Source: Eledone cirrhosa (Eukaryota). Taken from it: a stretch of 64,000 nucleotides of DNA. The notes beneath the pieces were generated by a model that saw nothing but the letters and a program-made list of their open reading frames with translations, did not search any database and was not told where the DNA came from. The first letter of the stretch is position 1, and every line of letters begins with the position of its first letter. Positions 4,140 through 60,454 of this stretch are shown piece by piece. The translations under genes and the position numbers were made by a program. Location of the stretch: contig OZ024753.1 in assembly GCA_964016885.1 (NCBI GenBank), positions 27,714,001 to 27,778,000 on the forward strand, written 5' to 3'.

Positions 4140-4414
4140 ATTAGTAAGAGGAATTCAAACTTTGTCTGATTTACTCGTTTTATTTACAATCCTTTAAAAT
4201 TTATAATGGTATTATAATGAAATAGTATGATTCCAAACTTGACTGTCACCACATATTATGAACTTGAAGATTGCGAAAGCATGAAAGTACTTGTTCAATT
4301 AACACTTAGAATTTAATATTCTATCATACTATTTCATTATAATACCATTATAAATTTTAAAGGATTGTAAATAAAACGAGTAAATCAGACAAAGTTGGAA
4401 TTCCTCTTATTAAT
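4140..4414. repeat. Inverted repeat, ~92-bp arms and ~91-bp spacer
   Basis: 4140-4231 is the reverse complement of 4323-4414 with about 2 mismatches; (TA)n on the left. Confidence 0.92.
4259..4297 (+). ncRNA. Minimal hammerhead (U3 variant) in the loop of a long inverted repeat
   Basis: TGAAC TTGAAGA T-TGC gaaa GCA-T GAA AGTACT T GTTCA. Confidence 0.65.
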
Positions 4415-4602
4415 ATAATCTTCTATACACAATCATACACACCCATGTATATTTATCTATATATATATATATATATATATATGAGCTACGTAGAATATGA
4501 CAAAAACACAATCGGGTATGATTAAATCAATGTATATTTTAATAAATATATATATATATATATAAAATTAAAAACATTTAGAAGACCATACGCTATCAGT
4601 TT

Positions 4603-4678
4603 TATCCAGGAAGAAGATCTTAACGGTTCATGCTTTTTCCAGGAAAAACTTGAGCCGTTAAGATCTTCTTCCTGGATA
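4603..4678. repeat. 28-bp-arm hairpin followed by sequence related to the 22-kb palindrome arm
   Basis: tatccaggaagaagatcttaacggttca / tgagccgttaagatcttcttcctggata; 4677-4795 matches 22424-22555. Confidence 0.85.
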
Positions 4679-5202
4679 TGTCAATATTTATAAAACAAAC
4701 TTTGTATTTTATCTCATGAGAGCGTACCAAAGTTTTGGTACCCTTCAAATATATATAATAGAATAAATATGGTTTTATAAATATAGTTTCCATTTATTTA
4801 ATATCATTGAATATTATACTCCAGAAAACTTGTTGAGTGCTTCAAATCAGTTATAAACATGTGTATTTGTTGAATTACCAACAAATTAAATATCCCTTTT
4901 GCTTATATATACAAACATATATATATATATATATATATATATATACATATATATATATACATATATATATATATACACACACATATATTTATCAAATATA
5001 TATATATATATACAAATATATATATATATATACAAATATATATATATATATATATATATATATATATATATATACAAACATATATATACAAATATATATA
5101 TACATATATATATATATATACAATAAATATATATATATACAAATATATATATATATATATATAGAATTCACAAGAATCAAAGCTATGTTCAAAGCATTTA
5201 TT

Positions 5203-5249
5203 CACTTACAATTGTTTCATCCAAACCTAGGCTTGGAGTCTTCGGAGCA
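5203..5249 (-). ncRNA. Minimal hammerhead, degenerate core (CCGAAGA)
   Basis: tgct CCGAAGA c TCCAAGC ctag GTTTGGA t GAA ACAATTGT A agtg, then AATAAA. Confidence 0.6.
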
Positions 5250-5729
5250 TTTTTCAATGTTTGTACACATAATTGACCTCCTTTCCAACACAAGAGACAT
5301 ACAGATACATATGTATACATAACTGCTCTGTAGAACAACTGATGTTATTTCATTGAGCTATTTATCTTACTGGTAATAAGGTAGTAATAAATTACTGACT
5401 TCACTGATTAGGGTTTAAAATATATATAACTATAAAAAGTTTTAGTATATATATAACTATAAATAGTATCCTTAATATTATATATATATATATATTGAAA
5501 CATATATATATACAAATATATATATATATATATATATGTGTGTGTGTGTGTACAAGGAAATCTAAGAGTTATTTAGCTGCTACTTTTTGCAGATTAAATG
5601 ACTACACAAGGGCTTCCTAGGTGCCTCGCAACGTAAATAAAAAGCTCAAATTATTTGCATTCGTATACTGAATTAATAGCGATTTAATTATATATGAATA
5701 AAATGATTAATTATCATTTTATATTTCAG

Positions 5730-5844
5730 GAAAGACCCATTGCTATATAAGTATAACCAAGATTCTATTAAAAAAATGGAAATATTAGTGAACGGTTTTG
5801 ATCCTAATATTGGTTTTACTCAAGTGTGCCATAATACTTCCAGT
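5730..5844 (+). CDS. MOXD1: DBH/MOXD1-like monooxygenase C-terminal exon
   Basis: tttcag|g AAA...AGT|gtgagt; phase-2 start fits the previous exon; open frame KDPLLYKYNQDSIKKMEILVNGFDPNIGFTQVCHNTSS. Confidence 0.7.
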
Positions 5845-6182
5845 GTGAGTTTTTTTTATTGTTGCAATTCTCTATTTGTTTTGTATATGATAATTTAACG
5901 TTTGCCAATAAACACTAACTTTTTATGTGTTACTGCTTCTAACGGTGCTAACCCTCTCTGAAACTTCTTAATAATTTAGCAGAGATTTTCATGTTTTAGC
6001 TAGAGTAGGAAAAGTGAGATACATGGCCGTTCTCTGGCCCCCAGAGGAAGGAAGAGGCCCAAACTCATATTTTCCTGTAGTAGGAAGTGATGCATGAGGT
6101 TATCAATTTATCATCTGACAGAAAACCAGATCAGAATGACTTCAACAAATTGAACTCTAGTAAAACATCCAGGGGCCAGGTG

Positions 6183-6374
6183 CAGACCTGCCAACCTACA
6201 AAAACCCCAGAGTGTACCATGAAAAAACGTGACCCAAAACAGGGAGAAATGAGGCAAGATGTCGAGATTTTACGTAATGAAAGCTATACTCTCCTAAAAA
6301 AAGCTAGACATCTCTCACCCACCTTAAAGTGGATGGGAGATCTTCCCGTCGGACAGGAAGTATTGAGAGGTCTG
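6183..6374. mobile_element. MITE family B
   Basis: TIR cagacctgccaac / ttgagaggtctg; internal match to the other two copies. Confidence 0.68.
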
Positions 6375-57549: not shown

Positions 57550-57594
57550 AGTCATAGTCCTTTCGTCACACACTCTGTGACCTCTTCAGTGACT
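57550..57594 (-). ncRNA. Minimal type I hammerhead, intact core
   Basis: AGTCA CTGAAGA g GTCACA gagtg TGTGAC GAA AGGACT A TGACT. Confidence 0.78.
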
Positions 57595-57645
57595 GGGGAT
57601 TCCTTTCTTTGTTTCTGTGCCTTTCCTTTCTTCTATCCTACGCCA

Positions 57646-57845
57646 NNNNNNNNNNNNNNNNNNNNNNNNNNNNNNNNNNNNNNNNNNNNNNNNNNNNNNN
57701 NNNNNNNNNNNNNNNNNNNNNNNNNNNNNNNNNNNNNNNNNNNNNNNNNNNNNNNNNNNNNNNNNNNNNNNNNNNNNNNNNNNNNNNNNNNNNNNNNNNN
57801 NNNNNNNNNNNNNNNNNNNNNNNNNNNNNNNNNNNNNNNNNNNNN
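57646..57845. other. Assembly gap (200 N)
   Basis: Run of n. Confidence 1.
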
Positions 57846-58317
57846 ATATATTATGCATATTATATATATATATTATATATATATTTTATATATATATATG
57901 TTATATATATATTTTATATATATATTATATATATGTTATATATATATCATATATATATATGTTATATATAAATTTGATATATATATTTTATATATATATT
58001 ATATATATATATGTTTTATATATATTTTATATATATATGTTATATATATATTTTATATATATATTATATATATATATATGTTTTATATATATTTTATATA
58101 TATATGTTATATATATATTTTATATATATATTATATATATATGTTATATATATTTCATATATATTATATATATATGTTATATATATATTTTATATATATA
58201 TTATATATATATATTATATATATATTTTATATATATATTATATATATATGTTATATATATATATTATATATATATATATTATATATATATTATAAGTATA
58301 TTATATATATATATATT

Positions 58318-58426
58318 AATCCCGCCGAGGTTAACTTTGCCTTTCATCCTTACGCGGTCGATAAACTAAAGTACCAGTAATACCCTCGGGTAATTGCTCT
58401 CCTTGTGCCAAAAGTAGAAACAATTA
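58318..58426 (+). mobile_element. SINE family 1, 5'-truncated
   Basis: Body match from aatcccgccgagg onward. Confidence 0.8.
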
Positions 58427-59269
58427 TATATATATCATATATATACATTATATTTGATATATATTTATCCTTATCGAGCCCTCTTTAGATTTTAGTCTTC
58501 AAATTTATTATTATTACTATATTATATATATATATATATTTTATATATATATTATATATATAAACAAACACACATATAATTCTTATTAATTGTGATTGTT
58601 TAATTAAAAGTTTTGCTAAAGTTATTGACTGTTCTATTTAACCAATAATATCGGCGAAACTTCGAAGTAAACATTCCCCATTAATAGCATTATGTTGAGC
58701 GTGTATGATTCCCTAATTTCTTTCCTCTTTAGTGTGTTTACCATATAAACCCGTAAAACACGCATCCATTCCAATCCAGGGCCTTCTGACTTCTCTTGAG
58801 GGAATCTCTCCATCGTTGACCTCTACAGCTTTCTATTAGGTTTTGGTCATGTGAGGAGTATAGCCATACTCACCACCTGTGGACAATTGAGGTTTGGTGA
58901 GGCTATTTAACCCATAGTTTCCAGCAGAAGTAGCGGAGGATAATTGTCTATGTATTTCGAACTCTAGTTCTTATCGGGCCAATGCTTCCCCATGCTTATT
59001 GTTAGAATTTAGACAGGCGAAAATATATAGTTTATCCTCCGCTGCTTCTGCTGGAATCCGCTAGACGGCACTGACCGTCAGACTTCTATTCATAGCTTTG
59101 CTTTCAAAATGTTTATTTATTAAACATAACGTATATACTTAGATACAAGAAATCCACATGTATGTATACAGCTATACCAACGCAAAATTTTAATATATAT
59201 ATATATATATATAGGTGTGTGTGTGTGTGGGGGGGGGGGGGGTGTATGTGTGTATGAAAAGTGATCTTC

Positions 59270-59900
59270 TTAGTGTTGAATCCTTCATATACCTTGGGAG
59301 TACAGTGAATAAAGATGGAGCACTGGATACTGGATTCAGAAATATTTCTAAGGATTCGAAAGACAGCAAAATCTTATAGTAATTTAGAGCCTTGGATTTG
59401 GTCATAAACACATATTAAGAATGAAACAAAAATATCTGTTTATAGATCCTTTGTGTTATCTTCTCTTCTGTACTCTTCTGAAACTTGGACGTGTTACAAA
59501 TATCACTTTAGACTCCTGGAACGATTCCATAAAAAATGCCTACGCCATATTCTGAAAATAAAATGGAATTCATTCACTCCTGACTCTGATGTTCTAGTTG
59601 GATCTGGTATTTGTTCATCCAGGCAATAATTTTGAAAAACAACAGCGTTTGTCTGGACATATTGCCCGCATGGCTGACGAGCGAATCCTAAAGCAACTAT
59701 TTTATTGCAACATGCTCAGGGAAAAGAAAACAGTAAGACAAAGAAAAGGTTCAAGGATGAATTGAAGGAGAACTTGAAGAATGTAGGAATTGACTTCCAG
59801 AATCCTGAAAAGACTCGTAGTGGATCGTTCTACTTGGCATTCAAAAATATGGAATGATGTGAAAACCTTTGAGCAAAACAGGCTAATGCAAGTAGATATT
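59270..59900 (+). mobile_element. Degraded RTE/BovB-like LINE fragment
   Basis: VESFIYLGSTVNKDG, KISVYRSFVLSSLLYSSETWT, LERFHKKCLRHILKIKW, GHIARMADERILKQLFY. Confidence 0.85.
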
Positions 59901-60418
59901 AAGGGGAATATGTTTGTGTAAAGTTAAAAAGAATGCCATATGTTCCGATATTCTATTCTCGGCGAAACGAACTCACTCTACCCGTGTGTTACTCGATTGC
60001 CCCTTGATTTAATTACCTACTAATTTTAATTAAGGTTAAGTGGATATCATATTAACAATCGACATATTTGCTGATCATGAGTTCAAATTTCTTCTGGACT
60101 CCATCTGAATCTTTAGACAGCACGGTAATCTGCATTATCTCAGATTCTTTTATTTCTTTAGTTCCTTTTGAGCCCAATGGAGTATTAGGTGACGAAAGAT
60201 CTCTATTCCTCACCGTTGCGAGCCTTGTAACAGTGCTGCTGTCACACACACACACACAAAGCCATTGAAATTAATAAGAAAATGTTATTGATTCAAAATA
60301 CCATATTCATTTGTATATATTTACAAACAGGAAGAGAAAAAAATATGTGTATGTGTGTGTGGAGCATTCAACCCCCTTTCCTGGGCACAATACATCTTAG
60401 CTGCACCCAATGATCGAT

Positions 60419-60454
60419 TCTTCTCATGAAGGACTAGCGTCCAAAACGTTAAGA
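60419..60454 (+). ncRNA. Minimal hammerhead, degenerate sister of 37548
   Basis: TCTT CTCATGA a GGAC tagc GTCC AAA ACGT T AAGA. Confidence 0.5.

What the first reader, a model, noticed from the sequence alone, without database searches (positions are those of the whole stretch)
4259..60454. Window-wide scatter of hammerhead ribozyme motifs tied to (TA)n tracts
Seen: about a dozen CUGAnGA-stem II-GAAA-stem III-UH type I arrangements from at least five unrelated sequence families (4259+, 5203-, 13545-, 18938+, both arms of the 22-kb palindrome, 22746+, 37548-, 38349-, 44860-, 57550-, 60419+; weaker at 4712+, 43901+ and about 45820-). Almost all sit close to a (TA)n or (TG)n tract, several are followed by AATAAA, and many have a tiny palindromic stem III (ACAATTGT, AGTACT, AACGTT, ACCGGT). 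Established: Penelope-like elements carry minimal type I hammerheads with palindromic stem III in their pseudo-LTRs, and non-autonomous retrozymes use hammerheads to make circular RNAs. Inference: this genome has a very high-copy set of microsatellite-targeting, ribozyme-bearing non-coding retroelements (roughly one per 5 kb here) that no ORF track reveals. No Penelope RT or GIY-YIG ORF is visible in the window.
Basis: partly seen in the sequence, partly recalled or inferred. Interest (0 to 1): 0.8.

Follow-up and report, generated by a model that had tools for sequence, protein, structure and literature searches.

The report
Penelope ends scatter 100,000+ hammerhead ribozymes
This animal genome holds over 100,000 hammerhead ribozyme motifs, most of them the short leftover ends of Penelope-like jumping genes that sit next to TA repeats, and the ribozymes likely cut the RNA of the parent elements.

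Summary
Observation confirmed. All 15 listed sites are present, plus a missed one (11618-11677, minus strand). A descriptor finds 7 perfect-core type I hammerheads against 0.015-0.03 in shuffles; 9 of 16 sites keep their family's core.

Eight family patterns give 105,306 exact genome matches (controls 0). 79 evenly spaced 10-kb samples extrapolate to about 170,000 (114,000-228,000), one per 18 kb; the axolotl has 126,247 in a genome about nine times larger.

The window families are not non-coding elements. All 8 high-copy ones are the terminal repeats of Penelope-like elements, lying beside RT or GIY-YIG frames elsewhere in the genome (four Hydra-type, three Neptune-type, one Neptune/Nematis-like). 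Copies show fixed 3' ends at (TA)n, optional tails, 5' truncation and inversions.

Extras: one young intact family has fixed U4C, another U3-A8. One family carries about 1 kb of microsatellite as cargo. A separate 24,863-match retrozyme-like family (422-548-nt tandem units) shows the same Penelope-type ends; the window holds only a ribozyme-less piece of it.

Cleavage and expression are untested. Known kind, unusual scale.

The parts
4137..4477 (+). Family J remnant: inverted tail plus hammerhead 4259-4297 (core C3 changed to U in this copy) plus tail; Neptune-type terminal repeat
   Evidence: 96-98% identical to the stretch 377-405 nt 3' of the stop of an RT+GIY-YIG ORF in L064, L065, L068, L076, and 94% in L060
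4603..4924 (+). Family B remnant with decayed hammerhead 4705-4765 (two core changes) and a short 5' inversion
5154..5483 (-). Family F remnant; hammerhead 5203-5249 with the family's fixed U4C core (CCGAAGA); Hydra-type
   Evidence: 6,024 pattern matches, 99 of the 100 listed have C4; intact 819-aa ORF between repeats 4.17-4.19 kb apart in L250 and L251
11584..11729 (-).
   Evidence: 3,842 matches; endonuclease frame upstream in 5 of 8 long loci
13530..13666 (-). Family A remnant: inverted tail plus intact hammerhead 13545-13593, between two (TA)n tracts; Hydra-type
   Evidence: 24,101 matches; anatomy; 175 nt 5' of the ORF start in L078 and L079
18929..19003 (+). Family A remnant; hammerhead 18938-18982, core intact, stem I cut to 3 bp by truncation
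22106..22567 (.). Family B head-to-head inverted pair (367-nt palindrome); intact hammerheads 22239-22303(-) and 22461-22525(+); Hydra-type by one linked locus
   Evidence: 15,539 matches; a sister subfamily runs through the full tail into an ORF at L334/L335
22746..22833 (+). Family G hammerhead with long stem II; old or diverse family, no ORF link tested
   Evidence: its 24-nt pattern is unique in the genome; diverged relatives in 8 overlapping loci, about 6 places
35853..35975 (-). 123-nt 3'-end piece of retrozyme-like family R, without the ribozyme, ending at a (TA)17 tract
   Evidence: 100% identical to an R unit
37426..37656 (-). Family C remnant; hammerhead 37548-37583 with A6 changed to G; Neptune-type
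   Evidence: 3,203 matches; GIY-YIG frame ends 88 nt upstream in L216, also seen in L196
38343..38431 (-). Family A remnant; decayed hammerhead 38348-38397 (C3 changed to U, 5' strand of stem I lost)
43898..43932 (+). Weak hammerhead-like motif, second box changed; unassigned
   Evidence: no relative found; fold z +0.67
44790..45017 (-). Family I remnant; hammerhead 44861-44896 with the U3-A8 core variant (family trait, not decay); Neptune-type
   Evidence: 12,348 matches; the repeat flanks a 930-aa RT+GIY-YIG ORF on both sides in L061
45818..45869 (-). Weak hammerhead-like motif (G5 changed to C); unassigned
   Evidence: not found by the descriptor; no relative
57378..57645 (-). Family D remnant, next to the assembly gap; intact hammerhead 57550-57594; Neptune/Nematis-like
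   Evidence: 15,386 matches; same-strand Penelope-type protein hits upstream in 12 of 30 loci; ORF stop 206 nt upstream in L331
60411..60587 (+). Family C remnant; decayed hammerhead 60419-60454 (two core changes)

Best explanation
The motifs are type I hammerhead motifs in the terminal repeats of Penelope-like retrotransposons, left as short 5'-truncated 3' ends beside (TA)n tracts, and they likely served to cut the tandem RNA of the parent elements. Shown: family-level links to RT/GIY-YIG frames, fixed 3' ends at (TA)n, one or two end points per family, ragged 5' ends, inverted pairs. Inferred from published Penelope biology: the GIY-YIG domain nicks AT-rich DNA; reverse transcription starts at one of two sites a short way 3' of the ribozyme, which gives the optional tail; it usually stops early. 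Because the ribozyme lies within about 50-260 nt of the 3' end, nearly every insertion keeps it while few keep the ORF. Inferred: in tandem parents the ribozyme cleaves read-through RNA into unit lengths just ahead of the poly(A) signal, probably as a dimer or with help from the element's protein; scattered solo copies are mostly inert passengers that decay.
For: Enrichment over shuffles. Exact family counts with zero controls. ORF links for 8 of 8 high-copy window families: A; B; C; D; E; F; I; J. Pfam RT plus C-terminal GIY-YIG in L061, L063, L064, L071. Clade motifs as in PMC8557442 section 11 (sequences). 3' extents cluster (A about 59/127, B 107/195, D 190/250, E 90/160, F 85/248, C about 120 nt) while 5' extents run from 1 to over 1,499 nt; 45 of 180 loci have an opposite-strand copy, 6 of 180 a same-strand one. 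Compensatory pairs: family A stem I A-U/G-C and A-U/C-G, covariation score 0.107 against 0.060, 0 of 500 shuffles; B-group stem III A-U 52 against G-C 12 of 68 with the palindrome kept; F stem III AATT to AGCT.
Against: No cleavage or expression data. The B link rests on one tandem locus of a sister subfamily (2 of 8 loci); none of 30 plus 69 other B-like copies had a linked ORF upstream, so part of B may move as short non-autonomous copies. G, 43901 and 45864 are unlinked. Stem III formed in 0 of 11 monomer folds and no fold z-score passed -2.0. Co-folding gave an intermolecular stem III in only 3 of 8. Covariation events are few and shared by descent; the number of covarying pairs did not beat shuffles (466 of 500). 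In the one Penelope tested in vitro, ribozyme mutants still inserted and no RNA ends mapped to the cut site (PMC11167929). Hydra-type ORFs have no Pfam RT hit here, so their assignment rests on motifs.
Confidence: 0.88

Rival explanations
1. The window motifs are non-autonomous non-LTR retrozymes that spread as small circular RNAs.
For: Family R fits: tandem 422-548-nt units without a long ORF, 11 of 30 loci in direct arrays, circles fold 4 SD better than shuffles even with simple repeats removed. An R trimer lies in the 10 kb just 5' of the window. Family B copies are mostly under 450 nt.
Against: For the listed families, 6 of 180 loci have a same-strand neighbour, and all 8 join coding Penelope frames. 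The window's R piece lacks the ribozyme.
Confidence: 0.07
2. The motifs come from Penelope ends but no longer cleave; the fold is kept as a protein-binding or priming signal for the element's RT.
For: Fixed U4C in family F, a change reported to lower activity in vitro (PMC3088659). Weak cleavage of minimal Penelope hammerheads (PMC4209133). Dispensable for insertion in vitro (PMC11167929).
Against: The cut-site triplet is NUH in all 51 sample hits by construction, with AUA and GUA making up 35 of 51. U3-A8 is a change known to keep activity. The core is kept across at least eight unrelated families.
Confidence: 0.2
3. Chance matches in an AT-rich, repeat-rich genome.
For: Relaxed matching (2 core mismatches) gives 6.5-7.4 hits in shuffles against 19 observed. 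43901, 45864 and a 2-mismatch hit at 27489 may be chance.
Against: 7 against 0.03 or fewer strict hits; 44 against about 0.08 in independent samples; 105,306 exact matches against 0 controls.
Confidence: 0.01

Closest known systems
Minimal type I hammerheads in Penelope-like element terminal repeats (Cervera and de la Pena 2014, PMC4209133; parts 1-2 of 4 read)
   Same: Type I topology, palindromic short stem III, extra base before stem II, many families per genome, mostly single motifs from truncated elements, opposite-strand pairs, U3-A8 variant.
   Different: Scale: about 170,000 here against about 9,000 (Xenopus tropicalis) and 4,000 (coelacanth), with different descriptors. Many stems III are longer palindromes (8-16 nt). 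Fixed U4C families were not in the parts read.
Hydra clade of Penelope-like elements (Craig et al. 2021, PMC8557442; passages and section 11 read)
   Same: RWK/RWR, DKT, CxCX5C linker, CxxC and CxH around the last endonuclease residues, hammerheads, (TA)n targets (families A, E, F; only the N-terminal part seen for B).
   Different: That paper found a small number of families, mostly cnidarian, generally under 3 kb. Here four families give 49,506 exact matches, the F unit is 4.17 kb, and E carries two hammerhead copies with a microsatellite-rich spacer.
Neptune clade (same paper) and the Anolis PAc element (Frangieh et al. 2024, PMC11167929; parts 1-2 of 4 read)
   Same: CX2-5CxxC linker before GIY-YIG (C, I, J, D); two fixed 3' end points giving an optional tail; AT-rich targets.
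   Different: In PAc the ORF starts inside stem II. Here the start codon is 175-830 nt downstream, and tails are about 70-165 nt against the 30-40 nt described.
Metazoan non-LTR retrozymes (Cervera and de la Pena 2020, PMC7229834, passages; Li et al. 2026, bioRxiv 10.64898/2026.07.22.740005, parts 1-3 of 5)
   Same: Family R: tandem non-coding units, type I hammerhead, GC under 45%, strongly self-paired predicted circle.
   Different: Units are 422-548 nt with a variable internal (TA)n tract and show Penelope-type inversions and two 3' ends at (TA)n. Neither paper's species, as far as I read, include a cephalopod; Li et al.'s supplements were not seen.

Membership tests
Type I hammerhead ribozyme | CUGANGA and GAAA boxes, UH cut site, three stems closed at stem I | tested here: met
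   9 of 16 window sites with the family core; 7 decayed or weak
Type I hammerhead ribozyme | Stem covariation within families | tested here: inconclusive
   Compensatory pairs in A, B and F, but few independent events; number of covarying pairs not above shuffles
Type I hammerhead ribozyme | Match to an Rfam hammerhead model | tested here: not met
   0 hits at gathering score in the window and 7 loci; none among the 150 of 249 E<=10 rows shown
Type I hammerhead ribozyme | Self-cleavage at the NUH site | not testable with these tools
   needs an in vitro assay
Endonuclease-bearing Penelope-like element | One ORF with RT and C-terminal GIY-YIG linked to the repeat | tested here: met
   Pfam in L061, L063, L064, L071; links for 8 of 8 high-copy families, B by one locus only
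Endonuclease-bearing Penelope-like element | Tandem repeat-ORF-repeat layout with the hammerhead in the repeat | tested here: met
   L061, L250, L251
Endonuclease-bearing Penelope-like element | 5' truncation, inverted upstream copies, optional 3' tail | tested here: met
Endonuclease-bearing Penelope-like element | Intron in the 5' part of some elements | not tested
   no RNA data
Hydra clade (families A, E, F; B partly) | RWK, DKT, CxCX5C linker, CxxC/CxH, (TA)n target | tested here: met
   motifs read; for B only the RWR motif and 52-54% identity to F
Hydra and Neptune clades | Placement in an RT tree with reference elements | not tested
   no Repbase reference proteins available from the tools
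Non-LTR retrozyme (window families A-F, I, J) | Short non-coding tandem units each with a hammerhead | tested here: not met
   6 of 180 loci with a same-strand neighbour; ORF links
Non-LTR retrozyme (family R) | Short non-coding tandem units each with a hammerhead, self-paired circle | tested here: met
   11 of 30 loci in arrays (three arrays); longest ORF 51-103 aa
Non-LTR retrozyme (family R) | Expressed as linear and circular unit RNA | not testable with these tools
   no RNA run was available for it

The most novel reading that the evidence does not exclude
This genome is the most hammerhead-rich animal genome yet counted, and it runs a self-feeding loop: Penelope-like elements aim at (TA)n, carry and copy up to kilobases of TA/TG microsatellite in their own 3' ends, and also mobilise a 25,000-copy circular-RNA retrozyme that bears Penelope-type tails, inversions and its own (TA)n. 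That would help explain the extreme microsatellite load of octopus-type genomes and give direct structural evidence, plus an intact enzyme-substrate pair, for Penelope proteins moving animal retrozymes.
Probability: 0.35. Interest if true: 0.75.

Novelty: new variant of a known kind. Interest (0 to 1): 0.5.

Why it matters
Two questions are left open in the papers read: what the Penelope hammerhead is for, and which machinery moves animal retrozymes (PMC8557442, PMC7229834, Li et al. 2026). This genome offers young intact Hydra-type ORFs (L250, L251), natural core variants fixed in thousands of copies (U4C, U3-A8), and a retrozyme-like family with Penelope-type ends, so both can be tested directly. 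About 56 strict motifs per Mb, half of them followed closely by AATAAA, could cut or end host pre-mRNAs when in sense orientation, which predicts a strand bias in introns. Rfam sees none of the tested copies, so standard annotation hides them (235 hits were reported for the giant squid, PMC6962438).

Tried and rejected
Rfam: only spurious microRNA hits on simple repeats at E<=10, none at gathering score. DNA search of the genome with a 126-nt piece of family D returned nothing, not even the source, because common words are skipped; patterns were used instead. PF26215 is not in the local Pfam. Expression: no RNA holder listed for the family F unit. An R4/RLE-type frame upstream of one E copy is incidental (1 of 30). 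Monomer folding did not separate motifs from shuffles. A 2-mismatch hit at 27489 has no relative and was dropped. Five extended B loci showed no linked ORF. Earlier scan notes: none. Lunse et al. on dimeric Penelope hammerheads is not held and was seen only through a review. Searches for prior reports: 'hammerhead ribozymes' + 'cephalopod' 0 papers; 'hammerhead', 'ribozyme', 'octopus' 8 papers, none on this by title or abstract start; microsatellite carriage by Penelope not found. Subscription journals and Repbase were not searched.
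Full report
SETTING. The window is G000:C13:27714001-27778000 of a 3.0-Gb assembly. It is AT-rich and full of (TA)n, (TG)n and (GA)n tracts. That it is an octopus-type cephalopod is my inference from composition and from one named relative of an element protein (Argonauta hians); it was not tested further.

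OBSERVATION. All 15 listed sites are present, and a further strong one lies at 11618-11677(-). A descriptor needing both core boxes, UH and three stems finds 7 perfect-core hits against 0.03 and 0.015 in two sets of 200 dinucleotide shuffles, and 9 against 0.05 when the U3-A8 and U4C cores are allowed. Because I wrote it after seeing the sites, I tested it on 79 evenly spaced 10-kb stretches (80 asked, one did not exist). It found 44 canonical and 7 U3-A8 hits in 789 kb; 12 shuffled replicates gave 1 and 15 in total. This extrapolates to about 167,000 canonical motifs (bootstrap 114,000-228,000), and about 215,000 with one core mismatch after subtracting shuffles. Seven exact patterns occurred 18 times in the sample against 24.5 expected from their genome counts, so the sample is not inflated. 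Small chromosomes are denser (0.86 against 0.47 per 10 kb). (TA)5+ follows within 300 nt in 44 of 51 hits against 16.7% of 4,000 random positions, and AATAAA within 30 nt in 27 of 51 against 2.9%. Hits share families, so these are not independent counts. Rfam reports none at gathering score.

FAMILIES. The 16 window sites fall into 11 sequence groups. Exact genome-wide matches, each with 0 for the reversed control: A 24,101, B 15,539 (44), C 3,203 (45), D 15,386 (50), E 3,842 (51), F 6,024 (46), I 12,348 (76), plus R 24,863 (92), total 105,306. The B and E patterns cover only the 5' half of the motif; the six patterns with both boxes sum to 85,925. Family J was not counted. Two apparent defects are family traits: 44893 has U3-A8, and 5245 has U4C (99 of 100 listed matches). 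Seven window copies have changed cores.

WHAT THEY ARE. A Pfam GIY-YIG search gave 10,597 candidates, 150 scored. Long frames carry RT then GIY-YIG. Links: J lies 377-405 nt after the stop in L060, L064, L065, L068 and L076. I flanks a 930-aa ORF on both sides in L061. A lies 175 nt before the start in L078 and L079. F flanks an intact 819-aa ORF, repeats 4.17-4.19 kb apart, in L250 and L251. D has same-strand protein hits upstream in 12 of 30 loci and a stop 206 nt upstream in L331. C has a GIY-YIG frame upstream in 2 of 30. E has one in 5 of 8 long loci chosen as widely spaced pairs or long copies. B has none in 30 plus 69 copies, but a sister subfamily runs through the full tail into an ORF 236 nt on at L334/L335, 2 of 8 loci and probably one tandem. 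A, E and F proteins show RWK/RWR, DKT, CxCX5C and CxxC/CxH, the Hydra features of PMC8557442. C, I, J and D show a CX4CxxC linker of Neptune or Nematis type. No tree was built. In the first 30 loci of each of A-F, 3' extents cluster at one or two values, usually at (TA)n, while 5' extents are ragged; 45 of 180 have an opposite-strand copy (pairs count twice) and 6 of 180 a same-strand one. This is the anatomy described for Penelope-like elements. The window itself has no such ORF.

MECHANISM. Shown: position of the motif near the fixed 3' end, truncation, inversion, (TA)n flanks. Inferred from PMC11167929: nicking of AT-rich DNA and reverse transcription from two sites 3' of the ribozyme. That geometry explains why ribozymes far outnumber ORFs. 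Inferred: cleavage of tandem read-through RNA just ahead of AATAAA. Stem III formed in 0 of 11 monomer folds, as expected for dimer-dependent motifs, but co-folding gave the intermolecular stem III in only 3 of 8. Compensatory changes exist in A, B and F but are few events shared by descent. Against a needed cutting role: ribozyme mutants of the Anolis element still inserted in vitro, and U4C lowers activity in a viroid.

EXTRAS. (1) Family E has a second hammerhead copy with G at the cut position 1.1-1.9 kb upstream of the terminal one. The spacers (8 from 6 loci, 670-1,626 nt after trimming) are 51-70% TA/TG/CA runs, yet copies at different loci share 12-179 non-repeat 14-mers against at most 2 in 207 control comparisons, so the microsatellite travels with the element. 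The family A 3' region in L327 is 2,760 nt and 66% such runs; evidence across loci is weaker there. That elements can harbour microsatellites is known in general; I found no report for Penelope. (2) Family R forms direct arrays of 422-548-nt units with an internal (TA)n of variable length, no ORF over 103 aa, and circles that fold about 4 SD better than shuffles without the repeats. 11 of 30 loci are in arrays and 14 of 30 have an inverted upstream copy; copies often end at one of two points followed by (TA)n. This is retrozyme layout with Penelope-type ends. A trimer lies just 5' of the window (L257) and a ribozyme-less piece at 35853-35975.

COMPARISON. Counts in papers read: 126,247 in axolotl, over 6,000 in Acropora millepora, about 5,000 in Mytilus (PMC7229834, passages); about 9,000 in Xenopus tropicalis and 4,000 in coelacanth (PMC4209133); 235 Rfam hits in giant squid (PMC6962438, passages). 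With the axolotl genome at 28.2 Gb, density here is about 12 times higher; descriptors differ. I recall high counts for Schistosoma mansoni that could rival this density; not checked. Penelope expansions in octopus are known, without mention of ribozymes in the two main texts searched (PMC13282606, PMC8967140, passages). Other papers seen as passages only: PMC6765202, PMC3088659, PMC6155905, PMC8969392. No supplements were read; those of Li et al. and Craig et al. may list cephalopod families.

VERDICT. A real feature of a known kind (Penelope terminal-repeat hammerheads), with unusual scale, fixed core variants, microsatellite cargo and a companion retrozyme-like family. Activity and expression are untested. 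Interest 0.5.

Noticed in passing
L257:1154-2290 (the 10 kb just 5' of the window): Direct trimer of family R units, 548 and 544 nt apart, each with an internal (TA)n tract; an ATGCAAAT octamer lies 88 nt before the core (19 of 30 R loci have it). I recall an snRNA-type promoter in newt satellite 2; not confirmed.
   Followed up: partly
L101:9138-9604(-): Second retrozyme-like family, 466-nt direct repeat, 64% like R over 357 nt, same octamer, very stable predicted circle.
   Followed up: partly
L062:7700-8159(+): Direct pair of another hammerhead family 459 nt apart with a long stem II; retrozyme or partial tandem not decided.
   Followed up: no
L075:1184, L342:1574 and 5890, L350:3314: A second family with a U4C core, 3' of a different Penelope-type ORF, so U4C seems to have arisen twice.
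   Followed up: partly
L078:1410-1500 and family B upstream flanks: CCAAT-like and TATA-like words lie about 20-90 nt before the hammerhead in families A and B, as expected of a promoter in the terminal repeat.
   Followed up: no
window 11831-13567(-) and 1558-2670(-): LINE-type RT frames of 578 and 370 aa (Pfam RVT_1); CR1/L2-like and RTE-like by recall; not Penelope.
   Followed up: partly
window 352-500, 21081-21279, 23910-24110, 25188-25380, 29813-29976, 58318-58427, 60896-61278: A dispersed 140-200-nt repeat, 80-90% alike, probably a SINE.
   Followed up: no
window 56435-56566 and about 14050-14140: Further ribozyme-less or partial 3' ends of family E and of a B subfamily.
   Followed up: partly
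window 28165-35160: 7 kb of strand-skewed GTG-rich tandem arrays, including a 41-nt unit in about 31 copies at 98%.
   Followed up: no
window 55322-55786 and 61636-62100: 465-nt direct repeat, 97.9% identical, 6.3 kb apart.
   Followed up: no
window 48541-49110(-): 189-aa frame that looks transposase-like by recall; no Pfam hit.
   Followed up: partly
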